DNA of 64,000 nucleotides from Eledone cirrhosa (lineage: Eukaryota): positions 17,050,001 through 17,114,000 of the forward strand of contig OZ024752.1 in assembly GCA_964016885.1 (NCBI GenBank), in the 5' to 3' direction. Made by a program: the position numbers and the translations under genes. The notes below the pieces were generated by a model, which worked only from the letters and a program-made list of their open reading frames with translations, was not told the origin of the DNA and searched no databases. This document shows, piece after piece, positions 17,836 to 49,407 of this stretch (positions within the stretch are counted from its first letter, which is position 1; each line of letters begins with the position of its first letter).

Positions 17836-18094
17836 CGATGAATTAGTTTTGCGAGGTTTTTATATGAAATCGTGTGTCGAAACAAATATTGTTATACTTG
17901 GGGAGGGTCATATTTGTGTAATATTGCCAGAATTAATAACAGAACACACTCACTGTTTGGTTGGTTTTCGCTTTTCGCTTCTCTGTCTTTTATATCGGTA
18001 ATCTAATTTATTCGGTCCTCAATGTTGCCATTGACTGACCAACGGTCAAAAATAATACAGATACAATATAGACACAAACACATATATATAGTTT

Positions 18095-18135
18095 ATCAAA
18101 GTTCTTTCGTTGCACATCTGCAACATCGTCAGTGG
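18095..18135 (-). ncRNA. Minimal hammerhead ribozyme in Penelope pLTR
   Basis: Reverse complement of the motif at 20489-20529. Confidence 0.65.
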
Positions 18136-20488
18136 TGCTATTGTTTCCTCCCGTTACATTGTATGTCTACGCCATCTTTATTTAGTCTGTTTATATATTT
18201 ATTTATTTATTTGTTTGTTTGTTTATTTTATTTTGTCTTCTTTGCGCATGCGTTTGCGTGTGTGTATAGTGTTTTGTTTGATGTGTGTTCGTGATTGGGT
18301 GACTGTGTATCGGTTAATGTATTCTATCTTTACTAGTGTGTGTTTATATGTGTTTGTTATTATTGTGCTTGTGTATGTATTTATTTATTTATTTATCTAT
18401 TTATTTATTTATTTATGCTTCTCTTAGGTCAGTGTTGTTTGTTTGGGTGTTGTTGTTATTCCATTCATTCTTTCTGTTTAGTTTTGGCCTTCTAAGTTCT
18501 ATTTCACTGGCCTCTCTGATTTGCCTATCTGCTGGGTCATTTCTATGTTTAGATATTATTCTAATTTCTATGTTGTCTATGTTACCGTCGTGTTGTTGTC
18601 TGGCATGTTCGTATAGTACTGACCCGTTTTTTCGTCCTTTTAGTTCCCCCCAGTGTTGGTCTATCCTTTCACCTATGCTACGAGCTGTCTCGCCTATGTA
18701 TGTTGTTATCATGTTTCTGCAAGTACCCTCTGTACATCTTATGCTATAGACTACGTTTCTAGTTTTACAGTTTATCCGGGGGTTTACCTTACATATGATA
18801 CATTTCCTATTAGTACAGTGGGTTTTCTTAAAAGGGTAGGTTTTGCTGATCAGGGATTTTATGGTAGTTTCTGGCTTTTCTACCACCTTAATCTTTAAGT
18901 GGGTCTTTCTCAGGGCCTTTCTACACTGGTTAGCTAATTTCCCTCCAGGGGTAGCGTCAACAAACATGACACTCTGGTATCTCTGGTTGTCGTACCATGA
19001 GGTGGCTTTCCCTATCTTATGTCTAGCCCTATCTAAGCAATTCCATGATTTGCTCCTGTATAATGGGCAAATTCCTTTCATGTCCAGTTCTATGAGGGTC
19101 TTATACTTCTCCATGGCTCCTTCGTATACTCTGACTCTGTCTCTTTGGTTGTAGCCAGAGAACTGCATGCGGTTGATGAAGTGTTGGATGTGTCTTTCCA
19201 TTTCTGTTGGGTCGCACATGCGGGACACATTCTTCATCACTCGTACCAAATCTGCGATCAGAATATTAAACTTAGCACTACTGGACATTGCTGAGTTTTT
19301 GAGTATCAGGTATTTGGAGGCCATGGGTTTAGCATAGTGTGAGTGGAGAATTTGGGCTCTCTCGTCTATAGTGTTAATCCAGAGTTCCGTGTCTAATACA
19401 GGTAGTCTATTGTTAGGGTGTTTGGAAGGGTAGTCGATAGTTACAGTTATACTCTGGTGTATGGAATTAGCTATCTGCTGGATGCTTTCCATTGTGCTAC
19501 GTTCTAAATCAAACTTGTTAGTGCTCTCTAGTGAGGATGTTCTTATAACTATATTGATATCGTCTACGTAACGAGAGTACATGATGAGGTCTATGGAGCT
19601 CTCATTAAGGAGATCTTTAAGTCTCCTTTCCCACCATACCATAAAAAGGTTGGCAACATCACCAGCTATGCTGGTGATGTTACCAACGTTGCTAACCAGT
19701 GTAGAAAGGCCCTGAGAAAGACCCACTTAAAGATTAAGGTGGTAGAAAAGCCAGAAACTACCATAAAATCCCTGATCAGCAAAACCTACCCTTTTAAGAA
19801 AACCCACTGTACTAATAGGAAATGTATCATATGTAAGGTAAACCCCCGGATAAACTCTAAAACTAGAAACGTAGTCTATAGCATAAGATGTACAGAGGGT
19901 ACTCGCAGAACATGACTACAACATACATAGGCGAGACAGCTCGTAGCATAGGTGAAAGGATAGACCAACACTGGGGGGAACTAAAAGGACAAAAAAACGG
20001 GTCAGTACTATGCGAACATGCCAGACAACAACACGACGGTAACATAGACAACATAGAAATTAGAATAATATCTAAACATAGAAATGACCCAGCAGATAGG
20101 CAAATCAGAGAGGCCAGTGAAATAGAACTTAGAAGGTCAAGACTAAACAGAAAGAATGAATGGAATAACTACAACACCCAAACAAACAACACTGACCTAA
20201 GAGAAGCATAAATAAATAAATAAATAGATAAATAAATAAATAAATACATACCCAAGCACAATAACAACAAACACATATAAACACACACTAGTAAAGATAG
20301 AATACATTAACCGATACACAGTCACCCAATCACGAACACACATCAAACAAAACACTATACACACACGCAAACGCATGCGCAAAGAAGACAAAATAAAATA
20401 AACAAACAAACAAATAAATAAATAAATATATAAACAGACTAAATAAAGATGGCGTAGACATACAATGTAACGGGAGGAAACAATAGCA

Positions 20489-20529
20489 CCACTGACGATG
20501 TTGCAGATGTGCAACGAAAGAACTTTGAT
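20489..20529 (+). ncRNA. Minimal hammerhead ribozyme in Penelope pLTR
   Basis: CA-CTGACGA-T-GTTGCA(gatg)TGCAAC-GAAA-GAAC-TT-TG. Helix I is weak; the same layout occurs at 38168-38210. Confidence 0.65.
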
Positions 20530-20730
20530 AAACTATATATATGTGTTTGTGTCTATATTGTATCTGTATTATTTTTGACCGTTGGTCAGTCAATGGCAAC
20601 ATTGAGGACCGAATCAATTAGATTACCGATATAAAAGACAGAGACGCGAAAAGCGAAAACCAACCAAACAGTGAGTGTGTTCTGTTATTAATTCTGGCAA
20701 TATTACACAAATATGACCCTCCCCAAGTAT

Positions 20731-20785
<55 letters not shown>

Positions 20786-26491: not shown

Positions 26492-26904
26492 AGTTGTCCC
26501 CCTTGCTTCTGCTGGACATCACCAGAGGGCGTTAGCATAGCTACGGCTTCCTAAAATCGTATTTCTTTAGAAATACGAAATTTCTATACACACATATATA
26601 TATGTGTGTGTGTGTGTCTGTATGTGTGTATGTATGGTGATGGAGGTGTTGGTAGCTGTGGTAGTGGTGTGTGAGTGTATATATATATATATATATATAT
26701 GTTTGTGTGTGTGGTGGGGGAGTATTTGTCGTATATGAGGTAACAGGTGTGATATGATAATTGGAAATCATTTGAAAATGTCAGGTCAAATTTTGATGAC
26801 AAGATAGTGTGACATGCATATTTCATTGAACAGGTTAAGCAACAAGTCTTTGAAACCACAAAACACACTGAGTTTTTTGTTTCATAGACGTCATTTTGTT
26901 ACTG

Positions 26905-28870
26905 AAAATTGCAACTACTTCCTGTAGAAGAGAAAATTAGCACTACTTCCTGTAGAAGAGAAAATTACCACTACTTCCTGTAGAAGAGAAAATTACAACT
27001 ACTTTCTGTAGAAGAGAAATTTGCTACTTCCCGTAGAAGAGCACATTACAACTATTTCCTGTAGAAGAGAAAAATACAACTACTTCCTGTAGACGAGAAA
27101 ATTACAACTACTTCCTGTAGAAGAGAAAATTACAACTACTTCCTGTAGAAGAGAAAATTACAACTACTTCCTGTAGACGAGAAAATTACAATTACTTCCT
27201 GTACAAGAAAAAATTACAACTACTTCGTCTAGATAAGAACATTACAACTACTTCCTGTAGAAGAGCACATTACAACTACTTTCTGTAGAAGAGAAAAATA
27301 CAACTACTTCCTGTAGAAGAGAAAAATACAACTACTTCCTGTAGAAGAGAAAATTACAACTACTTACTGTAGAAGAGAAATTTGCTACTTCATGTAGAAG
27401 AGAAAATTACAACTTGCTGTAGAAGAGAAAATTACAACTATTTCCTCTAGAAGAGAAAAATACAACTACTTCCTGTAGACGAGAAAATTACAACTACTTC
27501 CTGTAGAAGAGAAAATTACAACTACTTCCTGTAGAAGAGAAAAATACAACTACTTCCTCTAGAAGAGAAAAATACAACTACTTCCTGTAGACGAGAAAAT
27601 TACAACTACTTCCTGTAGACGAGAAAATTACAACTACATCCTGTAGAAGAGAAAATTACAACTACTTCCTGTAGAAGAGAAAATTACAACTACTTCCTGT
27701 AGAAGAGAAAAATACAACTACTTCCTGTAGAAGAGAAAAATACAACTATTTCCTGTAGAAGAGAAAATTACAATTACTTCCTGTAGACGAGAAAATTACA
27801 ATTACTTCCTGTAGAAGAGAAAAATACAACTACTTCCTGTAGAAGAGAAAAATACAACTACTTCCTGTAGAAGAGAAAATTACAACTACTTACTGTAGAA
27901 CAGAAATTTGCTACTTCCTGTAGAAGAGAAAATTACAACTTGCTGTAGAAGAGACAATTACAACTATTTCCTCTAGAAGAGAAAAATACAACTACTTCCT
28001 GTAGACGAGAAAATTACAACTACTTCCTGTAGAAGAGAAAAATACAACTACTTCCTGTAGAAGAGAAAATTACCACTACTTCCTGAAGAAAAGAAAATTA
28101 CAACTACTTTCTGTAGAAGAGAAATTTGCTACTTCCCGTAGAAGAGCACATTACAACTATTTCCTGTAGAAGAGAAAAATACAACTACTTCCTGTAGACG
28201 AGAAAATTACAACTACTTCCTGTAGAAGAGAAAATTACAACTACTTCCTGTAGAAGAGAAAATTACAACTACTTCCTGTAGACGAGAAAATTACAATTAC
28301 TTCCTGTACAAGAGAAAATTACAACTACTTCGTCTAGATAAGAACATTACAACTACTTCCTGTAGAAGAACACATTACAACTACTTTCTGTAGAAGAGAA
28401 AAATACAACTACTTCCTGTAGAAGAGAAAAATACAACTACTTCCTGTAGAAGAGAAAATTACAACTACTTACTGTAGAAGAGAAATTTGCTACTTCCTGT
28501 AGAAGAGAAAATTACAACTTGCTGTAGAAGAGAAAATTACAACTATTTCCTCTAGAAGAGAAGAATACAACTTCTTCCTGTAGACGAGAAAATTACAACT
28601 GCTTCCTGTAGAAGAGAAAATTACAACTACTTCCTGTAGAAGAGAAAATTACAACTACTTCCTGTAGAAGAGAAAAATACAACTACTTCCTGTAGACGAG
28701 AAAAATACAACTACTTCCTGTAGAAGAGAAAAATACAACTATTTCCTGTAGAAGAGAAAATTACAATTACTTCCTGTAGACGAGAAAATTACAATTACTT
28801 CCTGTAGAAGAGACAAATACAACTACTTCCTGTAGAAGAGAAAAATACAACTACTTCCTGTAGAAGAGAA
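26905..28870 (+). repeat. 28-bp tandem minisatellite (~70 copies) with higher-order structure
   Basis: Unit ACAACTACTTCCTGTAGAAGAGAAAATT; diagnostic variants recur at ~1105-bp spacing. Confidence 0.95.
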
Positions 28871-29813: not shown

Positions 29814-29950
29814 TGTTATTAAATATGTTATGATGCAATACTGACTCTTTGTTTCTTTATTCTTATACTATTATACTGTGCTCTGCGCGAGCATCGAGTG
29901 CTCATCCGGCATACCAACTACAGACGCAATTATCTTGCACCTAATCACTC

Positions 29951-30028
<78 letters not shown>

Positions 30029-30299
30029 TAAAACATGTCTTTAGAATCACTAGATATAATATATACCATTTCCTCTCCTAATCACCATAATTAACCATAT
30101 AAGAAATCAATTAGACCAAGCTATAAGAATAAAGGCTCCTATGAAGAAATCTCCGACAAATAACCGAAAGCAGCCCCTTCGCGGTGGCTGCGATGGAGTA
30201 TTTATCGAACATTTCGACAACATGTAGAAATCGACCAGATGTACAGTCAACTAAACATAATTAGGTGTAAAATCAAACTTAGAAGAAATGCGTACATAC

Positions 30300-30373
30300 C
30301 TCTACCATGGTTTCATCCGTATTTTAAGACATCCGATAACAGGGAATGTCTAGAGCTTCGGATTCATCAGGAG
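30300..30373 (-). ncRNA. Type I hammerhead ribozyme (family B)
   Basis: Reverse complement of CTC-CTGATGA-ATCCG..CGGAT-GAAA-CCATGG-TA-GAG. Confidence 0.85.
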
Positions 30374-30556
30374 TGAACTCAAAATTAGACATTTAATTTT
30401 CCAAAGTGATCGCGCCAAAAATACATTCAAAAATGGCTAAGAATCGTGACGTGGCAGCGGTCAAGCTAGAAAGGATGTGATTAGTTGCTTACAACGTTTT
30501 TGAATGTATTTTTGGCGCGATCACTTTGGAAAATTAAATGTCTAATTTTGAGTTCA

Positions 30557-30630
30557 CTCCTGATGAATCCGAAGCTCTAGACAGTCCCTGTTATCGGATG
30601 TCTTAAAATACGGATGAAACCATGGTAGAG
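30557..30630 (+). ncRNA. Type I hammerhead ribozyme (family B)
   Basis: CTC-CTGATGA-ATCCG..CGGAT-GAAA-CCATGG-TA-GAG; GUA triplet. Confidence 0.85.
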
Positions 30631-31212
30631 GTAATTAGGTATGTACGCATTTCTTCTAAGTTTGATTTTACACCTAATTATGTTTAGTTGACTGTATATC
30701 TGGACGATTTCTACATGCTGTCGAAATGTTCGATAAATACTCCATCGTAGCCACCGCGAAGGGGCTGCTTTCGGTTATTTGTCGGAGATTTCTTCATAGG
30801 AGCCTTTATTCTTATAGCTTGGTCTAATTGATTTTTTATATGGTTAATTATGTTGATTGGGAGAGGAAATGGTATATATTATATCTAGTGATTCTAAAGA
30901 CATGTTTTATGATATATAGCTCTGATTATTTAATTTATTAATTCTTCATTGAGCCACAACGTGACCTGTTGCAAAACACATATATATCTATGACTTTATA
31001 TATATGTAAACCTTTATATGTAATAATCTCCCGTTTGGTTGAGATACAATTTGGCTATATTGGGCTGCGCTTTCAGCAATAAGCCTACCCGCCGTAAGCA
31101 ACTAATCACATCCTTTCTAGCTTGACCGCTGCCACGTCACGATTCTTAGGCATTTTTGAATGTATTTTTGGCACGATCACTTTGGAAAATTAAATGTCTA
31201 ATTTTGAGTTCA

Positions 31213-31286
31213 CTCCTGATGAATCCGAAGCTCTAGACAGTCCCTGTTATCGGATGTCTTAAAATACGGATGAAACCATGGTAGAG
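31213..31286 (+). ncRNA. Type I hammerhead ribozyme (family B)
   Basis: Same motif, second tandem unit. Confidence 0.85.
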
Positions 31287-31868
31287 GTAATTAGGTATGT
31301 ACGCATTTCTTCTAAGTTTGATTTTACACCTAATTATGTTTAGTTGACTGTATATCTGGACGATTTCTACATGCTGTCGAAATGTTCGATAAATACTCCA
31401 TCGTAGCGACCGCGTAGGGGCTGCTTTCGGTTATTTGCCGGCGATTTCTTCATAGGAGCCTTTATTCTCATAGCTTGGTCTAATTGATTTTTTATATGGT
31501 TAATTATGCTGATTGGGAGAGGAAATGGTATATATTATATCTAGTGATTCTAAAGACATGTTTTATGATATATAGCTCTGATTATTTAATTTATTAATTC
31601 TTCATTGAGCCACAACGTGACCTGTTGCAAAACACATATATATCTATGACTTTATATATATGTAAACCTTTATATGTAATAATCTCCCGTTAGGTTGAGA
31701 TACAATTTGGCTATATTGGGCTGCGCTTTCAGCAATAAGCCTACCCGCCATAAGCAACTAATCACATCCTTTTTAGCTTGACCGCTGCCACGTCACGATT
31801 CTTAGCCATTTTTGACTGTATTTTTGGCGCGATCACTTTGGAAAATTAAATGTCTAATTTTGAGTTCA

Positions 31869-31942
31869 CTCCTGATGAATCCGAAGCTCTAGACATTCCC
31901 TGTTATCGGATGTCTTAAAATACGGATGAAACCATGGTAGAG
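31869..31942 (+). ncRNA. Type I hammerhead ribozyme (family B)
   Basis: Same motif, third tandem unit. Confidence 0.85.
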
Positions 31943-32798
31943 GTATATAGGTATGTACGCATTTCTTCTAAGTTTGATTTTACACCTAATTATGTTTAGT
32001 TGACTGTATATCTGGACGATTTCTGCATGCTGTCGAAATGTTCGATAAATACTCCATCGTAGCCACCGCGAAGGGGCTGCTTTCGGTTATTTGTCGGAGA
32101 TTTCTTCATAGGAGCCTTTATTCTTATAGCTTGGTGTAATTGATTTTTTTATATGACAAAGAGCTCAGGATTTCTTCTCCTTTGAGCACATTATTTACAG
32201 GGAATAGCGAGAGCCTATGCCTCCGTTAATTTATCGTGATATTTCGCTCCTAATAACAGTCTTTCCTACCTCAGTTTGGTTGAGCACACTTCTCTGAGTG
32301 GCTTTGGGCTGCCCTTTCTAGCAGTTCGTCCCCCAGAGGCCACTGGTTCACTGCCCTTAAACACGCTGTGACTTCTCCCTCCCATGTGTAGCTGGACAGT
32401 CAATTTTAAAATTCTCTTAGTGTTGTCTGAAATGTATAGCCTTACACACGGTGATGAACCGAGGCTAACCCATTGCTTTCAACAAATTATTGGTGAAACA
32501 TATCTTTGGATTAGTGTCTTTGGATTTGTACGTGTGTTATATAGTTATAGAGGTATTTATTTACGCTTTAATTTATATTTTTAATTATCATGTCTATAGT
32601 CTGCCTTTCATAAATTATAGATTCCATACACTGGTGGTTTTTTTCCCCTGTTTTATTGATAACGCACTATATATCTCTCTCTGGTGTGTTACCTTTTCAA
32701 CATATTGTATTTTAAAGAGCTCAAGATTTCTTCTCCTTTGAGCACATTATTTACAGGGAATAGCGAGGGCCTATGCCTCCGTTAATTTATCGTGTTAT

Positions 32799-32842
<44 letters not shown>

Positions 32843-33313
32843 GGGGTGGGGGTGCGCGCGTGTGTGTGAGTATGTATTTGTGAATGTGTCTGTTGACATC
32901 TGGAATATGGCTTAAGAGAAACTTGAAGATAATGGTATGATAGGCACTCAATATTTTGAACTGGTCTATAGAATTCTCTAGGCCTTTATCACTCTAAGAA
33001 GAATTAGCTTTTAAAGAATTTCCCTTTTCTTTAAATCCATCAACCATGACTGACCACCAACGATCTTATAGACACCTGAAATATAGGCATTGTTAGCTTA
33101 AGAGAAACTTAAAAATAAGGAGTGGCACCCATTCTGAACTTGTTTATAGAATTCTTTCTGCCTTTGTTACTCTAAATATAAATTATAGCTTTAAAGAATT
33201 AGCTTTTATTGAATTCTCTTTTCTATCAACCAATGACCTCTACCCATCGCACTCCCCACCTTCCCCTACCACCTGAAGAGATCTATAAATACCATATTTA
33301 TTTTTTGATACCC

Positions 33314-33364
33314 AGATTCCTGATGATTTCTAAAGAATGAAACAGTTCTAGTCCTGTAGAATCT
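33314..33364 (+). ncRNA. Type I hammerhead ribozyme
   Basis: AGATTC-CTGATGA-TTTCTAAAGAAT-GAAA-CAG(ttctagtc)CTG-TA-GAATCT; 6-bp helix I. Confidence 0.85.
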
Positions 33365-33461
33365 CATCTATATTAAAACTTTTATGCTCTGCTATGTATT
33401 GAGTACCTTAATTACTGTGGTTACCTCCGATTCAACCCGGAATAACGTATATATATATAAC

Positions 33462-33546
<85 letters not shown>

Positions 33547-33737
33547 GGTTTGAGGTTCACCACTGTATAGAGCTGGTCTATTCCGTATGGTCAATCGTAA
33601 TGCAATAATATAGAGAGTACTCAACGTAAAGCAGTTCAACCGTCTTTGTTTTTGTAGTTGGTGGTGCTATTACGGAGTTAAATATTATAATGAAATGACA
33701 GGAGGCTGGATTTGTGTAAATCCTTGAAAGGTTTATT

Positions 33738-33795
33738 ATACTATGATCATTTCAATGACCGGGTTCCGTATGAATCCGGTGATATCATCAGGTAT
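33738..33795 (-). ncRNA. Type I hammerhead ribozyme
   Basis: Reverse complement of 34424-34481. Confidence 0.75.
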
Positions 33796-34423
33796 TCGAA
33801 ATATAATACGTGAATGTAATAGATAAAATCCATGGGGATTTTAACTTCATCCTAGAAGTCTAAACACTATAACACACTGACTCCCAATATATTCACCTCT
33901 GCTAAGATGCGGGTCCCTGTGAACATTTTCTCGCGCCACTCCTGGCTTGACTGTGGCCTGACATTAATATCGACCTTTCTTCCTCTTTCTTTCTATCTTC
34001 CTTCTTGTAGCCATCAACCCTTACTTTTCTACTTCTCTCTTCCCTCCCTTCTCTTCTCCCCTCCTCCTGTCTTCCTCCCGCAGACTTATCTTCCTTCCCC
34101 CTCTTGCTTGCCTATATCTGACCAGTAGTAGTTGCCTTTCTTCTTTTAGCTGACATTAACCCTGACTTCTCTTCTTCTTTCTTCCCCCTTCTTCTCTCTC
34201 CTTCCTTTCTTTCTTTTACCTTGTGTCATGAGATCGACGTTAACTTATGCTACCATCCCTTTCTGTTTTCGTTTATCTGACCGGTAGTAGCATACTATAA
34301 ACTTTAGTCACGTCACTCCAGGGCGACCGGCTGAGGTTGAAGGAACAGAATAGCGGTTGCCCTCGGGTCCTCGATTTTCAGCCCCATGGATTTTATCTAT
34401 TACATTCACGTATTATATTTCGA

Positions 34424-34481
34424 ATACCTGATGATATCACCGGATTCATACGGAACCCGGTCATTGAAATGATCATAGTAT
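34424..34481 (+). ncRNA. Type I hammerhead ribozyme
   Basis: ATAC-CTGATGA-..ACCGG..CCGGT..-GAAA-TGATCA-TA-GTAT; palindromic helix III. Confidence 0.75.
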
Positions 34482-34542
34482 AATAAACCTTTCAAGGATT
34501 TACACAAATCCAGCCTCCTGTCATTTCATTATAATATTATAT

Positions 34543-34630
<88 letters not shown>

Positions 34631-35090
34631 TAAAACATGAGAAGAAAGAATACTGCGTGGTTGCACATGGGTTACATATGATAAAAATAGTCCTTCGTCA
34701 GTGATTTTCCAACCTTCATTGGTATTTCATCGCTTTAAAAATCATATACCTTCGGTTGGTGCGAACAATAGCTAAATAAAGCTATTGGGACAAGTAAATC
34801 GCGTAAAGCGAGCGAGACAGTAAACAACAGGGAAGGATAGCAACGCAAAGATAGGAAAAAACAAGCAGCATGGGAATCCGGTCAGCTTAAGCTGGGTGGA
34901 TTTCATGAGCGAGAGGGAAATACAGACCATCCGACGTGAGTGAGATGTGAGCAAGAAGAGAACCCACTACAGGCCAAACGGGAGGAAGTGAAAAGGGGAG
35001 AAACAGAGAGTGAGTGAGTGGAAGTGCGAGGAAGAGGCCAGTCGAGAGAAAGTGTAACTGACAGAGGGAGCGAAAGAAGGTGAGAGAAAC

Positions 35091-35121
<31 letters not shown>

Positions 35122-35128
35122 TACATGT

Positions 35129-35204
<76 letters not shown>

Positions 35205-35844
35205 CAATATATAGAGGAGATAACACGAGAGAGTTTGTTTTCAATTACAGGGGTATAAGGCAACGAGAGTGAAAAATAAAAAAAAACATAATTAAAGAGA
35301 TAAATTAAAATGTATAAACCCACCTTTATAACTATAAAACACCTGGACAGACTCAGAGAGAATGCATTACCATAAACTGTGTAAGAATCATAACGACTCA
35401 GGGTTCGTCAGCAGGTTTAAATAAGGTACGTCTCCCATTTCTAAATAGACATTAGATAATTAACGTGTTGTACGTGTAGGGAGAAGGAAAATACGCGCGC
35501 CAGACAGTACATAGTGGCTCCTATGGATAAATAAACTGCCTGAAATGGCAGCTTATAACCATTCAACTGAAAAGGCGCAACAGAGAAATTAGTAAGGAGC
35601 TGAAATATCAAATGAAGCAACGGAGTTAGAGACTCGCGTGTATCCCTGTAATTAAATGAGCTGAAGGAATAAGTACCGGGCTCTTCATAATACAGTATAG
35701 ACAGGAGAAAACAGAAAAGAGTATGTTTTCAATTACAGCGCGAGTCTTTAACTCTGTTGTTTCATTTGATATATATATATATATATATATATCAAATGAG
35801 TGCTCACCCGGGTGAACCTGCAGTAACTCCTAGTTACACCCACT

Positions 35845-35896
<52 letters not shown>

Positions 35897-35899
<3 letters not shown>

Positions 35900-36530
35900 C
35901 CCAGAAAAACATGGGACGAGCTGATAAATTCCGACCTCACACGCTTACACCTCTCCAAGACAATGTCACTGGACCGAGACCTTTGGCGGTACTCAGTAAT
36001 AGAGAAGACCCGCCTTACCTAAATACAAAGTAAAAACCTACTACAGTCAGTAGGCATCTCTATCAAAACACACCCCCGTCCCACCACCTCCACCCCACCC
36101 ACACCGCCCCTTTCAATGTAAAGTTATGTTGGTCCCACAACATCCAGGCCGAAACAAATGAGATCGTGTAGGTGTCACGACAAAAACACACAGTCCACGC
36201 TGTAAATGTGGCCGTGTAGGCAACACGGTAAAAACCTCCCAGCCCCACACTGTAAATGTGGTTGGTGTTAGGAAGGGCATCCAGCTGTAGAAAACCCGCC
36301 AGACAGTCCACGCTGTAATGTGGCCGTGTAGGCAACACGGTAAAAACCTCCCAGCCCCACACTGTAAATGTGGTTGGTGTTAGGAAGGGCATCCAACTGT
36401 AGAAAACCCGCCAGACAGTCCTATGCGAGCAAGACAACCACTCTTGCCTCAAGTGGGAAAACCCCCGTCCAAACCCATGCAAGCGTGGAACACGGACGCT
36501 AAACCTGATGATGATGATGATGATGATGAT
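35897..36530 (+). mobile_element. LINE 3' remnant followed by a SINE-like repeat with (GAT)n tail and internal ~120-bp tandem duplication
   Basis: PRKTWDELINSDL..DRDLWR at ~35900-36010. GGTGTTAGGAAGGGCATCC occurs twice (~36264, ~36376). Ends AACCCATGC..GGACGCTAAACC(TGA)n. Confidence 0.6.
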
Positions 36531-36689
36531 ATACAATGCAAACACCAAAACCAACCACTAGCACAACCCGAAACAACACCGCACAGACAACACATCACAA
36601 CAACCAACTACATGCTAACTCCAAACAGAATCTGACCAACCGGCAATAAAACAACAACCCCATAACTCCCAGCTGTAACCGCAAAAAGC

Positions 36690-37120
36690 GGGGGGAATGC
36701 CCACTGAGCGGGAAGTGCCTCGTTTAATACATTATATACCAGTACGATGTCACAGCCGGTCGGAAGGAATACACCTATATAGGCGCGACCTCGACTACAT
36801 TTAAAGAGCGTTTGTACAACCACAAAAGCTCTTTCAACCACAGACCTAAGCGTTCCCAAACCAGTCGGGCCGATTTAATCTGGAACCTCAAAGATAGGAA
36901 TCTGAAATACCAGATCAAATGGTCCGTTTGGAGACGCATGGCCCAACTTTCCAGCAGAGGAAGCCACTGCAGGTTGTGCCTGGCAGAATCGGTAGAAATC
37001 ATTAAATTAAAATCGGTCATTAATTTGAGATCGGAAATCCTCATAAACTGCAGACACACCGAAAAGCATAATTCTCTGCCATGGTATATGGGCAGTAACC
37101 ACAGACCGACCAAAACTTAA
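36690..37120 (+). mobile_element. Penelope-like GIY-YIG endonuclease fragment
   Basis: TYIGATSTTFKERLYNHKSSF..IKWS..CRLCLAE..INLRSE...CRH. Confidence 0.75.
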
Positions 37121-37583
37121 CCACCTGAAATTAGACAACGATAGACACAACATCCTAGTAACTGCTAACTTTATCATCGTCTCCATTACTACTGTTACGT
37201 TCATTACAATTGATGTTCTTGTTAATATTACATTGCATCCTTTATCATGTCCCTCATCACTAAACATATCACCGTATATCCACAACTCTCAACCACACTA
37301 ACACATACCACATACCCTTAAGGCACACACAAACCAGCAGCGCCATGCACATCACCCCAATTGATTTCATCACTTCCATTTGTATTACCAATTTCATCAC
37401 CGTTATTTAACATTACAGGGGCGGTGGATTGGCAGGTTCTTTCTATTTCAAGGTTAACGCTTGAAATAGAAGGAACATGGTCTTATCGTTTCGGTCGCTT
37501 GTCCTTCATCAAAAGAAAGTATGTTAAATAAGATAAACTGAAGGGTGAATGCAGCGATTCTTTGCATAAACTTTAATCTGTTA

Positions 37584-37629
<46 letters not shown>

Positions 37630-37660
37630 ATCAAAAGATGGTTAAAAGAGTTCCAAGTAT

Positions 37661-37727
37661 TTTATTATGCGCATTTCAAAAACATATATCATCATGGGAT
37701 GATATCTGCGTTCTCATCAGATAAAAT
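37661..37727 (-). ncRNA. Type I hammerhead ribozyme
   Basis: Minus strand: UUUUAU-CUGAUGA-GAAC..GUUUUU-GAAA-UGCGCA-UA-AUAAAA. Confidence 0.75.
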
Positions 37728-37874
37728 AGGGAGACATGAGCTGAAGCTTAAAAAACACTTGTGAGCAGCGAGGTTTTAAATCAACATATCTTATATTAGT
37801 TATACCCCAGTCCTAGAGTGCTACTTATCCGATATTTGCATTGCTTTATTGTGCTACAATAAAATTCACCTCCT

Positions 37875-37906
<32 letters not shown>

Positions 37907-38167
37907 TTCGTTTTCTGAATTTGTTTAGCAAGATTCTTTATCTGAAAACGTGTGTTGAAACCGATATTGTTATACTTTGGGAGGGTCATGTTGCCAATAA
38001 GAAACACACGTACCAGTTGCTTTCACTCCAATTTATTATAAATCAAGAAATTTTTTCAAAAAAAAAAAAAAGAATTTATGTAAAAGAATTTATTTTTTAT
38101 TTTTTTTTTTTTAAATTTATAAATTTCCGGTTGGTTGGTTCCACAACCGGATGGTTGTTCATATATT

Positions 38168-38210
38168 GTCAAAGTTATTTCGTCACACATTGTGTGACCT
38201 CTTCAGTGAC
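38168..38210 (-). ncRNA. Minimal hammerhead in a solo Penelope-type pLTR fragment (~37915-38290)
   Basis: Minus strand: GUCA-CUGAAGA-G-GUCACAC(aau)GUGUGAC-GAAA-UAAC-UU-UGAC. The neighbouring TATTGTTATACTTTGGGAGGGTCA matches the Penelope terminus at 17887. Confidence 0.75.
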
Positions 38211-38354
38211 TGGCGATTTCTTTCTTTGTTTTGTGCCAGTCCTTTGTTCCGTCCTACGCCATCTTGTTTTTGTATATATAGTAATAATAATAAATTTGAA
38301 TAATTCTTTGCTTAAACTTTAATCTGTTATTTTAATAAATAAATAAATAAATAA

Positions 38355-38509
<155 letters not shown>

Positions 38510-38657
38510 TAACAGATTAAAGTTTAAGCAAAGCCGCAATTCTTTGCTTAAACTTAATGTGTTATTTTAAATATTTGCTCTAGGGTTCTTATATATTTGA
38601 TATATATTTATGCTTATCGAGCCCTCTTTGGAGTTTAGTCTTCTCATTTATTATTAT

Positions 38658-38715
<58 letters not shown>

Positions 38716-39007
38716 TATAAAGCATGTCCATAGAATCATTCGATAATATATATACACCATTTCCTCTCCCAATTAGCATAATCAACCACACAAAAAAACA
38801 ATTAAACCAGGCTATAAGATTAAAAGCACCTATGAAGAAATTGTAGATAGATAAACGACAGCCATCTATTAGCGATCAACCGCTATAGAATATTTACCCA
38901 ACATTTCAATAGCACGTGGAAATCGATTAAATATACCTTCAACCATACACAATTAGGTATAAAATTAAAGTTAGAAGAAAAAATGCATATACACATACCA
39001 GGATTAC

Positions 39008-39088
39008 GTTTCTACCCTTAGGGTTTCGTTCGCTTTCGGAAATATCCTATCAAGGATAAATTCTCGAGCTTCGAACTCATCAGGAAAC
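39008..39088 (-). ncRNA. Type I hammerhead, diverged family B copy (unit ~38715-39290)
   Basis: Minus strand: GUUUC-CUGAUGA-GUUCG..CGAAC-GAAA-CCC(uaa)GGG-UA-GAAAC. Flanks are homologous to the 30-32 kb unit. Confidence 0.88.
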
Positions 39089-40579
39089 AAACTCACTTGG
39101 ACAAAGATTTTTCTTAAATGATCCCCGCCAGAAACGAATTCAAAATGGCTAAGAACTGTGACGTGGCAGTGGTCAAGTCAGAAAGAATGTGATTGGTGCC
39201 TTACGACGAGTGGGCTAGTTGCTAGAAAGCGCAGCCCAATATTGCCCAAATTGCATCTCAACCTTATGGGAGATTATCAAATATAAAGATTTACATATAC
39301 ACAAACTATATATATATATATGTGTGTGTGTGTATATATGTGTAGATATGTGTATGTGCGTGTGTATATGTAAGTGTATGTATGTGTGAGTGTGTGTATG
39401 TGTGTGTATGAATATGTATGTGGGCTGTAATTATCTATACATGTAGGGAAGTGAATATGTGACCAAGCATGTCGCTCCACCCACACATCCCCTCCCAAAC
39501 CAATATCACCATCGTACATTTCTGACAAATATTCCCAAACTATCCTGAATTTTCTCTTTGCTGTCATCCCATTCTTATCAAAAGACAAGTATCTTACACC
39601 TCATTAAAACCCCCCCACCACCAGACAAACACCTAAATTCATCTTTAATATAGAAAATTGTAGAAGTTATTCTTCATAAATTTAAGGTAGTTGATTCAGC
39701 TATAAGAAAAGAATTTGAAAAACATCCTGCCATTATATTCATCACAGGTCATTTATTGAAATGTAACCCGCAGGAGGAGACTTTTACAGTCCCTTTCCTA
39801 AACAGTCTTTAAACAACCCAACACCACTCCCAATTATCTTGCTGTTACCATTCACTATTTTCTGTATATGTATCTGTTAGACACGCAGTGACTAACAACA
39901 GAATGTTTTAAGTCTGCATGTTGTATGAAAATATATGCGTAGTTTGTGAATAAAAGATTCAAGGGGTATTGCTGGCCGTGGCGATTCCTTCCAAACATGT
40001 TTTGTAATGTATCGTCTTATTGGCTAATTTCATCGTCTTATTGGCTAATCAACCAATGAGAGTAATTGTTGCTCAAAAGCGTTTTGTTTGCACGTTTATT
40101 TATCGTTTCGCTTTCGAATCTTCCTCATGTATTTTGTCGTTTTATCATCAAAATATTTTTCTCGTTTTGGTAAGTTATATTGTTAATTTATATATGAATT
40201 TTTAAATTTATATTAACTATTTTTTTTCAGTTCGTTATAACATGCTTAGAATATTGGTTGTATCATATTTACTTGTATATATGTCCATATTATTGTTCGT
40301 TTTATGTTAGATTATTTTATTATTATTATGTTAGATTATTTTTTTATTATTATGTTAGACTATTTGTATGTAATATTTAATTTTTATTAATTCAACTATA
40401 ACAATTATTATGTAAAATATATTTATTTAATATTGATTGTTTTTTGTAGTTGTTTATATTAAAAGTCTCAAAATATTTTTATACATCTTACAATAATATT
40501 TATAAGATCATTTATAAAATAACAATTATATAAACTAATTACATTACAACAATAATTTATTATTAATATATATCATTAA

Positions 40580-47776: not shown

Positions 47777-49020
47777 CTAAAGACGAATCCATTGTGGCAG
47801 AAAATAATCATTATAGTCAGCACTGTACGCATTTCGAAGTCCGGATTTTTCTTTAGCTGGTGGGAAAAAGTAAGTAACTTTTCCTTTACATAAGAATCCA
47901 GCCCACCAGCTGAAACTACCTACAGAAGAAATCAAATGATCACTGCTAGATAGAATAGCCATATCTTCTATTGCTGAGTTACCCTTTACAAAATAAGTAC
48001 TATTGTCAAATATATTTTTTTCACACCATGGTATACCATTAGAACAAACAATAAATATCACATTTTTATAATGAGATCGAAACCATTCTTTTGCCTTTAT
48101 GAAATATTCCTTTGTAGCCACGTTATGTCCATGAGAGTTGTTAACCATATCACCACGTCGTACATGTATTCCCACCAACGTCCAGTTCTTTATTGATGTA
48201 TTTATAGAAATGTTTTCATGAGTTTTAACAAAGTTCCTTAGAATTCTAACAGCTTTCTGTTTAATGTTCTTTTTAAAAGTGAACTGGGAATGGATTTCGT
48301 CGAATATGTGTTCAAAATACTTGTAAGACTGTAAATATGATCCAATAATAATATTGTTATTATTACTAATATTAAAGAAACTAGGATCAAAAGAACTGGC
48401 ATGGTGTTCATATTTTCTTTTAGCCTTATTGCAAGAAGATTTATTTTTCTCAAAACCGTATATATTAAATATTTTTTGTAAATTTATGTCATCATTACGA
48501 ATAGTCACATTCATATTTTTTAGTCTTGCTAAACCTAAACCCGTTGCAAAAATAAACATTTGATTACCCAACCTTCCAATTAAATTGATGCACACGTATT
48601 TTTGTGTAGTTCTTTGTCTTTCCAAACTTGTAGTATTATTGTAGGTAGGTGGTTGAGTGCTTGTTGTTCGTGTTTCCAAACTTGTTGTGTTATGGTAGGT
48701 AGGTGGTTGAGTACTTGTTGTTCGTGTTTCCAAACTTGTAGTGTTATGGTAGGTAGGTGGTTGAGTGCTTGTTCGTGTTTCCAAACTTGTAGTGTTATGG
48801 TAGGTAGGTGGTTGAGTAGATGTTATACGTTTCTTCAACATGGTCGTCTTAAGAAGAGTAGACGGTGTGGTGAACTTTTCCAATTTGCTATTTCTTATAA
48901 AATTGACTGGTGATTTGAAATTAACTATTCTTTGTTGAATTCCGGTGAAGGGAATTCCCATAAAGACAAAATACAGGGAAACAACAGCCAACATACAAAG
49001 CCATAGAAACTTGCGTTGAT
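47777..49020 (-). CDS. Galactoside alpha-1,2-fucosyltransferase (GT11, FUT1/FUT2-like), type II membrane protein with mucin-like stem
   Basis: Uninterrupted frame (ORF 47777-49177) with TM FLWLCMLAVVSLYFVFMGIPF and motifs GRLGNQMF, YLQSYKYF, GIHVRRGD, DMAILSSSDHLI..GSFSWWAGFL. A polypyrimidine-TTTTACAG acceptor ends at 49021, so the true start is probably in an upstream exon that I could not locate. Confidence 0.92.
48606..48826 (-). repeat. Coding tandem repeat, 4 x 51-54 bp (TSTQPPTYHNTTSLETR)
   Basis: Visible in both DNA and protein; in frame. Confidence 0.95.
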
Positions 49021-49407
49021 CTGTAAAATAAAAGTAGAAATTATATAATGTAACTAGCTGGCCCCGTGCCGTCAAAAATGATGGCTCATTGTAATATCTA
49101 TACATAATATAAACAAGAGATGTTTGTTGTTTGTTTCTTGGCACAAGAGTGATACGAATACACAAAGGCACAGCCAATGTGTAGTCAATTCGCTATACAT
49201 ATACACAGACAAGTGTGACGAACCATAGAACGCTGGACTGCTATAGTTTCTCACCACTCTCCCTTCCTCAGTCATCACATACATGTGTGTGTATGTAATA
49301 ATCATTTCTCTAAGTGTGTCTGTTTATATATATGTATGTGTAGATGCATGCGTGTATTTGTAATTGTATAGTCTACGTATCTTTCTAAATAAAACACACA
49401 CACACAC

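What the first reader, a model, noticed from the sequence alone, without database searches (positions are those of the whole stretch)
38715..39290. Compensatory changes in the diverged family B hammerhead
Seen: against the 30-32 kb copies, helix II changes ATCCG/CGGAT to GTTCG/CGAAC, helix I CTC/GAG to GTTTC/GAAAC, and helix III palindrome CCATGG to the true hairpin CCC-TAA-GGG. The core is invariant while the flanks are clearly diverged. Inference: selection acts on the ribozyme fold, with a possible switch between dimer-dependent and monomeric cleavage.
Basis: partly seen in the sequence, partly recalled or inferred. Interest (0 to 1): 0.75.

Follow-up and report, generated by a model that had tools for sequence, protein, structure and literature searches.

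The report
Hammerhead ribozyme subfamilies of a retroelement
This is one copy of a common non-coding jumping element whose hammerhead-shaped RNA keeps its catalytic letters and base pairs across many subfamilies; its longer third stem is predicted to let it cut alone while still able to pair up, a variation of a kind already known in such elements.

Summary
The 39 kb copy (38709-39325, minus strand) and the 30-32 kb copies belong to two subfamilies of one ~656-bp non-coding element with at least 916 genomic copies and Penelope-like (PLE) insertion anatomy. In 85 copies retrieved without using the ribozyme, the 11 core positions never change on subfamily branches (P about 0.006) yet decay at background rate in single copies. 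Selection therefore acts on source elements, not on inserted copies. Helix III forms a ladder from 2 to 4-5 pairs. The long form is predicted to fold active alone but still dimerises (10 of 11 positions pair), and tandem ribozymes are no commoner in short forms (4 of 40 versus 3 of 25). This is a likely gain of monomer competence, not a switch. New here: an extended helix II with a possible 4-bp pseudoknot (not significant). PLE hammerhead covariation and short/long helix III pairs are published; the scan noted PLE hammerheads on other DNA before.

The parts
38709..39325 (-). 5'-truncated copy of a ~656-bp non-coding PLE-type element (long-helix-III subfamily)
   Evidence: 74.8% identity to 30976-31574 over 620 columns; 98-100% matches across the genome
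39007..39089 (-). Type I hammerhead ribozyme motif: helix I 39089-39084 with 39012-39007; core 39083-39077 and 39027-39024; helix II 39076-39072 with 39032-39028; helix III 39024-39014; predicted cleavage between 39013 and 39012
   Evidence: cleavage site inferred from the hammerhead consensus, not assayed
39033..39071 (-). Extension of helix II: ~6x6 internal loop capped by a second hairpin (helix IIb)
   Evidence: recovered de novo by consensus folding of 85 copies; 83% of cells paired in 20 hand-picked rows
39066..39094 (-). Candidate 4-bp pseudoknot: GAGY at 39094-39091 with RCUC at 39069-39066
   Evidence: 79, 82, 78 and 84 of 85 copies paired; fourth pair U-A 38, U-G 31, C-G 15, C-A 0; 0 lineage changes in the 6 GAG/CTC columns, P about 0.06; covariation not significant, p 0.06
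39142..39196 (-). Conserved promoter-like block (CCAAT-, CACGTCA- and GCCATTTT-like motifs; factor names recalled, untested)
   Evidence: 28-nt pattern from this block has 916 exact genomic matches, control 0; GCCATTTT run invariant on lineage branches
38830..38998 (-). Possible spliceosomal intron (GTATGT donor-like site, TTTCTTCATAG acceptor-like site); unproven
   Evidence: donor-like site matched in 53 of 85 copies and missing in one whole clade; acceptor-like block invariant on lineage branches; no RNA data
38661..38719 (.). (TA)n run at the element's 3' end, the likely insertion target
   Evidence: 75 of 89 loci end in a TA-rich run
30020..32155 (.). Short-helix-III subfamily array: one inverted truncated copy plus three tandem 656-bp units, four hammerheads with CCAUGG

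Best explanation
The 39 kb and 30-32 kb copies are two subfamilies of one high-copy, non-coding element with Penelope-like insertion anatomy whose hammerhead core and pairing are conserved between subfamilies, likely because source copies must self-cleave their RNA to be mobilised by a PLE enzyme in trans. Shown: family size, anatomy, core conservation on lineage branches, neutral decay in single copies, covariation of two helix II pairs, and a graded series of helix III lengths. Inferred: a promoter in the unit drives a transcript through partial tandems, the ribozyme cuts it to unit length (possibly circularised), and a PLE reverse transcriptase-endonuclease inserts the copy into (TA)n. Predicted: the lineage of the 39 kb copy has a 4-bp helix III and 6-bp helix I and can fold active as a monomer while remaining able to dimerise; CCAUGG lineages (2 bp plus palindromic tetraloop) would gain more from dimerising.
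For: 816 and 916 exact matches to two independent patterns, controls 0. 78 of 89 loci end at one of two fixed 3' points and 75 of 89 in a TA-rich run; 5' truncation, partial tandems, inverted 5' pieces and ~100-bp tails match the PLE anatomy described in PMC8557442. Core: 0 changes in 11 columns on branches with 3 or more leaves against 0.62 per column in 247 outside columns, P about 0.006; on terminal branches 29 changes against 24.7 expected. Pair changes keep pairing in 26 of 37 lineage events against 29 of 95 terminal events, p 6e-5; 20 of 31 against 26 of 75 without the pseudoknot, p 0.006. Helix II pairs 1 and 3 rank 1 and 4 of 45,150 pairs. Active monomer is the minimum-energy fold for 3 of 3 longer-helix-III copies tested and costs 2.6-4.1 kcal/mol for 4 of 4 CCAUGG copies. 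Young intact PLEs exist in the genome.
Against: No cleavage, transcript or circle was observed. No autonomous partner sharing this unit was found: PLE reading frames near the copies are separate insertions. Each helix II double change is a single event on the tree; pair 1 is U-U in 17 and A-C in 8 of 85 copies, in successful clades. The covariation null is lenient: 7 of 8 top-scoring outside pairs are not complementary. Helix I pairs are not individually significant (best E 0.26). One small clade amplified with a broken helix II pair 5 and a duplicated 3' flank, so a perfect fold may not be required. With 30-60 nt of flank, the predicted active fraction is low for most single copies, long forms included. 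No sharp pile-up of 5' ends at the cleavage site.
Confidence: 0.8

Rival explanations
1. A true mode switch: CCAUGG subfamilies cleave only as dimers and the CCC-UAA-GGG lineage cleaves only as a monomer, under selection for a different life cycle.
For: Helix III hairpin +2.9 against -2.9 kcal/mol; active monomer gap 3.6 against 0 kcal/mol; stepwise lengthening along the tree, with later long forms losing a perfect palindrome; inverted 5' pieces differ, 21 of 40 short against 4 of 25 long.
Against: The long helix III still forms a 10-bp self-duplex (-14.8 against -11.2 kcal/mol), and some long variants are perfect palindromes. A second tandem ribozyme occurs in 4 of 40 short, 1 of 15 intermediate and 3 of 25 long loci, p 1.0. 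PMC7229834 describes a 2-bp plus tetraloop helix III as the invertebrate type, and coral and mussel monomers cleaved. Polarity is unrooted.
Confidence: 0.15
2. All subfamilies work the same way (dimer or factor-assisted), and helix III length drifts by slippage in C and G runs under a loose constraint to stay self-complementary.
For: 32 different helix III strings in 85 copies, most variation in long forms; all tested forms give a double hammerhead of -9 to -17 kcal/mol against two free monomers; axolotl variants with 1-bp and 2-bp helix III both worked best as dimers (PMC7229834).
Against: Lengthening is directional along the tree and keeps the stem paired; the predicted monomer gain is large.
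Confidence: 0.35
3. The fold is conserved because this copy, or the copies in general, serve the host (for example regulating the neighbouring glycosyltransferase gene array).
For: The copy is retained near-identical in 7 units of a ~60-kb segmental array that carries a Glyco_transf_11 frame.
Against: Retention follows from the segmental duplication. Core positions mutate at background rate in individual copies, 29 against 24.7 expected, and terminal pair changes mostly break pairing, 66 of 95.
Confidence: 0.04
4. The compensation is an accident of shared ancestry between two lineages and reflects no selection on RNA structure.
For: Few independent events; non-complementary column pairs score almost as high; pair 1 is often mismatched.
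Against: Full hammerhead consensus in place; zero lineage changes in the core; pairing kept in 26 of 37 lineage events, often through G-U intermediates; slid controls fall from 92% to 27-49% paired (on 20 hand-picked rows).
Confidence: 0.05

Closest known systems
Metazoan non-LTR retrozymes (Cervera and de la Pena 2020, PMC7229834; Li, Clavereau and Pollet 2026, 10.64898/2026.07.22.740005)
   Same: Non-coding, AT-rich, repeated unit with one type I hammerhead; monomers and short tandems; proposed PLE origin; two helix III variants in one genome, one with a U-U at the base of helix II (axolotl Amex1/Amex2).
   Different: Unit is ~656 bp (170-400 nt in the 2020 paper, within the 51-972 bp range of the 2026 preprint); mostly single dispersed copies with PLE-type truncation and inversion; a graded helix III series from 2 to 4-5 bp inside one family; helix II extended by an internal loop and second hairpin. 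Circular RNA not shown here.
Hammerheads in pLTRs of Penelope-like elements (Cervera and de la Pena 2014, PMC4209133)
   Same: [quoted passage not shown]
   Different: Not a minimal hammerhead: it has a real helix III and no extra base between A9 and 10.1; G10.1-C11.1 is not kept (48 of 85); no reading frame; monomer-stable long helix III was described there for fungal and protist PLEs, not metazoan ones.
Pseudoknot-stabilised hammerheads (Perreault et al. 2011, PMC3088659)
   Same: Base pairing of 4 or more pairs between the helix I side and helix II side, predicted there for about 40% of motifs and for all three types.
   Different: Here the candidate pairs a 5' flank with one strand of an internal loop in an extended helix II; statistically unproven.

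Membership tests
Type I hammerhead ribozyme | Core CUGANGA, GAAA and UH in order | tested here: met
Type I hammerhead ribozyme | Three helices round the core, helix I open | tested here: met
Type I hammerhead ribozyme | Match to an Rfam hammerhead model | tested here: not met
   0 hits at gathering threshold in the window; no hammerhead family among 54 hits to E 10 in 29900-40000; the 39-nt helix II extension is the likely reason (inference). Not a defining feature of the class.
Type I hammerhead ribozyme | Loop 1-loop 2 tertiary contact or pseudoknot | tested here: inconclusive
   candidate 4-bp pseudoknot conserved but p 0.06
Type I hammerhead ribozyme | Self-cleavage at the NUH site | not testable with these tools
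   needs transcription assay
Non-LTR retrozyme / non-autonomous PLE | Non-coding repeated unit with one type I hammerhead, occurring in tandem | tested here: met
   no frame of 150 aa or more in the element; 656-bp tandems; 8 of 80 loci carry a second ribozyme-bearing unit
Non-LTR retrozyme / non-autonomous PLE | PLE insertion anatomy: fixed 3' end, 5' truncation, partial tandem, inverted 5' copy, tail, microsatellite target | tested here: met
   tail here is ~100 bp against 30-40 bp in PMC8557442
Non-LTR retrozyme / non-autonomous PLE | Homology to the pLTR of an autonomous PLE | tested here: inconclusive
   no linked frame among the loci fetched; nearby PLEs have other termini; only one PLE family searched genome-wide
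Non-LTR retrozyme / non-autonomous PLE | Expression as unit-length linear and circular RNA | not testable with these tools
   no RNA holder listed
Minimal (dimer-only) PLE hammerhead | No helix III beyond 15.1-15.2 and an extra base between A9 and 10.1 | tested here: not met
   helix III of 2-5 bp, no extra base

The most novel reading that the evidence does not exclude
One retroelement family preserves a stepwise record of a hammerhead evolving from dimer-dependent (2-bp palindromic helix III) to monomer-competent (4-5 bp) cleavage, on a scaffold in which a pseudoknot docks the helix I flank on an internal loop of an extended helix II. The change goes with a different insertion pattern (fewer inversions and tails). 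It would give a natural allelic series for testing what hammerheads do in PLE transposition.
Probability: 0.25. Interest if true: 0.55.

Novelty: new variant of a known kind. Interest (0 to 1): 0.32.

Why it matters
The function of hammerheads in Penelope-like elements is still open (PMC8557442 calls it unclear and raises the possibility that they are passengers). This family gives direct comparative evidence that the core is under selection in source lineages and neutral after insertion. It also offers natural variants with helix III from 2 to 5 pairs for a monomer-versus-dimer assay. The phenomenon itself, covarying PLE hammerhead families with short and longer helix III, is published, so the gain is a good test system and not a new class.

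Tried and rejected
Rfam: no hammerhead hit at either threshold; the miRNA-like hits come from inverted repeats and microsatellites. RNA evidence: no RNA holder listed; laying four contig runs of unrecorded type showed only that the family is present, with no joint at the candidate intron or cleavage site; no evidence either way. Autonomous partner: PLE-like frames near copies (L127, L131, L138, L177, L182) are separated by (TA)n or other sequence, and where a ribozyme was seen it was a different one; the abundant PLE at window 18413-19726 has a different terminus. Cleavage site as 5' end of insertions: 8 of 19 arrays stop 10-60 nt downstream of the upstream cut against about 0.21 elsewhere, p 0.03 for a bin chosen after looking, one of 11 bins; one copy (L185) starts exactly at the cut; not accepted. 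Tandem-frequency test of the switch: negative (hand count of listings 8 of 81 against 2 of 73 loci, p 0.10). Long-range structure in the rest of the unit: consensus fold exists but top covarying outside pairs are mostly non-complementary. Alternative partner for GAGY as a helix I extension: the C variant would mismatch there (read). Polarity short-to-long: unrooted; terminal branches 0.025 against 0.033, p 0.05, so not settled. Pattern-selected copies were excluded from conservation tests because the pattern fixes the core. Alignment A2 was mis-positioned and not used. Lunse et al. (PMC5785218) is not held.

Full report
Observation. A motif scan of the window finds a type I hammerhead on the minus strand with its core at 39083, and four related ones at 30370(-), 30560, 31216 and 31872. 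The 39 kb motif is the minimum-energy fold of its sequence, z -2.5 to -2.8 against shuffles; the 30-32 kb motifs are not, z -0.6 to +0.3. Rfam reports nothing at gathering threshold and no hammerhead family to E 10.

What the element is. The ribozyme lies inside a repeat at 38709-39325 that is 75% identical to the 656-bp tandem unit at 30-32 kb. Five other blocks of 12-18 identical bases lie outside the ribozyme, so the pairwise contrast of invariant core and diverged flanks is weak by itself. The window is part of a segmental array of about 60-kb units (7-8 copies) that carries a Glyco_transf_11 frame; copies inside it are not independent. Genome-wide, a ribozyme pattern has 816 exact matches and a promoter-region pattern 916, with reversed-pattern controls of 0. 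The 39 kb form has 33 dispersed matches at 98-100% among the 40 scored, so it is a young member of another subfamily. No frame of 150 aa or more lies in the element.

Insertion anatomy. Of 89 promoter-anchored loci examined (98 fetched, 9 skipped as already held), 78 end at one of two fixed 3' points and 75 end in a TA-rich run. Copies are 5'-truncated, often preceded by a partial tandem copy, often flanked by an inverted truncated copy, and sometimes carry a ~100-bp tail. This matches the description of PLE insertions in PMC8557442 (passages seen), whose tails are 30-40 bp. A very young PLE family with open frames up to 1,218 aa exists in the genome, but it has a different terminus, and PLE frames near the copies are separate insertions. 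The mobilising partner is therefore inferred, not found.

Test of selection. I used only copies retrieved by the promoter pattern: the first 100 matches, all from one contig, plus 4 window copies. Thirteen were dropped as truncated and 6 more could not be anchored, mostly for indels in the ribozyme, leaving 85. On a tree built from columns outside the ribozyme, the 11 core positions show 0 changes on branches with 3 or more leaves, against 0.62 per column in 247 outside columns (63% with none; P about 0.006 if columns are independent). On terminal branches the core has 29 changes against 24.7 expected. Changes at paired positions keep pairing in 26 of 37 lineage events and 29 of 95 terminal events (p 6e-5); for helices I-III alone 20 of 31 and 26 of 75 (p 0.006). 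Selection thus acts on source elements, and inserted copies decay neutrally.

Covariation. Helix I pairs are not individually significant (best E 0.26). Against this: 7 of 8 top-scoring outside pairs are non-complementary, so ancestry alone gives scores nearly as high; each double change is one event on the tree; and pair 1 is G-C in 48, A-U in 10, U-U in 17 and A-C in 8 of 85 copies. Helix I changes pass through G-U intermediates in other subfamilies, and the 3-bp helix I of the 30-32 kb form looks like a lineage-specific reduction of a 6-bp helix (direction inferred). On 20 hand-picked rows, 92% of cells pair against 27-49% for slid controls; that control leans towards the structure.

Helix III. 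The 85 copies show 32 strings; CCAUGG is found in 39, and longer forms follow in order along the tree: 6, 7, 8, 9 and 10-11 nt. The tree is unrooted and terminal branch lengths are similar (0.025 short, 0.033 long, p 0.05), so polarity is open. The isolated hairpin costs +2.9 kcal/mol for the short form and -2.9 for the 39 kb form; self-duplexes are -11.2 and -14.8. In whole ribozymes the active monomer is the ground state for 3 of 3 longer forms and lies 2.6-4.1 kcal/mol above it for 4 of 4 short forms, while a double hammerhead is 9-10 kcal/mol below two free monomers for six of the seven and 17 for a long perfect palindrome. With longer flanks the predicted active fraction drops for most copies. 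A second tandem ribozyme occurs in 4 of 40 short, 1 of 15 intermediate and 3 of 25 long loci (p 1.0). Inverted 5' pieces differ, 21 of 40 against 4 of 25 (p 0.004), but this is one lineage contrast and may reflect the partner enzyme. The evidence fits a gain of monomer competence, not a switch.

Extra structure. Consensus folding recovers helices I, II, III and a second hairpin beyond a ~6x6 internal loop. GAGY just upstream of helix I is complementary to RCUC in that loop in 78-84 of 85 copies per pair; the fourth pair is U-A 38, U-G 31, C-G 15 and never C-A, and all 6 of its lineage events keep pairing. It is not significant (p 0.06). Pseudoknots between the helix I and II sides are common in hammerheads (PMC3088659, passages). 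Splice-like donor and acceptor sites follow the ribozyme; the donor is missing in one clade. Names of promoter motifs are recalled, not tested.

Mechanism. Shown: anatomy, conservation pattern, covariation. Inferred from PLE and retrozyme biology: transcription from the unit's promoter through a partial tandem, self-cleavage after GUA to give unit-length RNA, possible circularisation, and reverse transcription with insertion into (TA)n by a PLE protein. No RNA holder was listed, and the contig runs were uninformative.

Comparison with the literature. [quoted passage not shown] PMC7229834 (passages and section 14) reports two axolotl variants with 1-bp and 2-bp helix III, the second with a U-U at the base of helix II, both more active as dimers, and active coral and mussel monomers. 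The 2026 preprint 10.64898/2026.07.22.740005 (parts 1-3 of 5) argues that such repeats derive from PLE pLTRs and found cleavage in 1 of 9 tested. PMC6765202 (passages) reviews the dimer model. Lunse et al. is not held. No supplements were read; alignments there may hold similar variants. Six searches showed no listing on a graded helix III series within one family or on this helix II extension, but subscription papers are not covered. Earlier scan notes on PLE hammerheads agree in kind; none matched this sequence.

Verdict. Observation confirmed; selection on the fold supported at the level of source lineages; the switch is not shown and is better put as a likely gain of monomer competence. 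New variant of a known kind; interest 0.32.

Noticed in passing
window 17886-20738; G000 genome-wide: 5'-truncated PLE with an inverted copy; its C-terminal part has at least 150 matches at 98-100% amino-acid identity, open frames up to 1,218 aa, 36,679 first-look candidates: a very young, abundant family. A hammerhead core with helix II lies near 18090-18135 on the minus strand (read by eye).
   Followed up: partly
window 51800(-) and 52884(+); 37720(-): Two further hammerhead families: an inverted pair with a 4-bp helix II, and one with an 8-bp helix I and palindromic helix III.
   Followed up: no
G000 C12, about 17.01-17.49 Mb; window 47777-49192: The window lies in a tandem array of 7-8 near-identical ~60-kb units; the unit in the window holds a Glyco_transf_11 (alpha-1,2-fucosyltransferase-type) frame with a Thr/Ser-rich repeat.
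   Followed up: partly
L091, L120, L188, L093, L151, L098: A small clade amplified although helix II pair 5 is G-A in most members and the 3' side of the ribozyme carries a short duplication; possibly a weakened or re-registered ribozyme.
   Followed up: no
promoter-anchored loci L091-L188: Inverted 5' pieces (21 of 40 against 4 of 25) and 3' tails (16 of 52 against 1 of 50 in the wider set) are much commoner in short-helix-III lineages than in long ones; cause unknown.
   Followed up: partly
window 39014-39024: The long helix III contains CCCTAA, the complement of the common animal telomere repeat (recalled); neighbouring variants lack it, so probably coincidence.
   Followed up: no
L185, near position 194: The upstream partial copy begins exactly at the predicted cleavage site, next to an inverted piece; one case only.
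   Followed up: partly
L127 1789-3870: A separate degenerate PLE with a reverse-transcriptase-like frame and its own long-helix-II hammerhead upstream, inserted beside a copy of this element.
   Followed up: partly
window 26904-28870: 28-bp tandem repeat, 71 copies.
   Followed up: no
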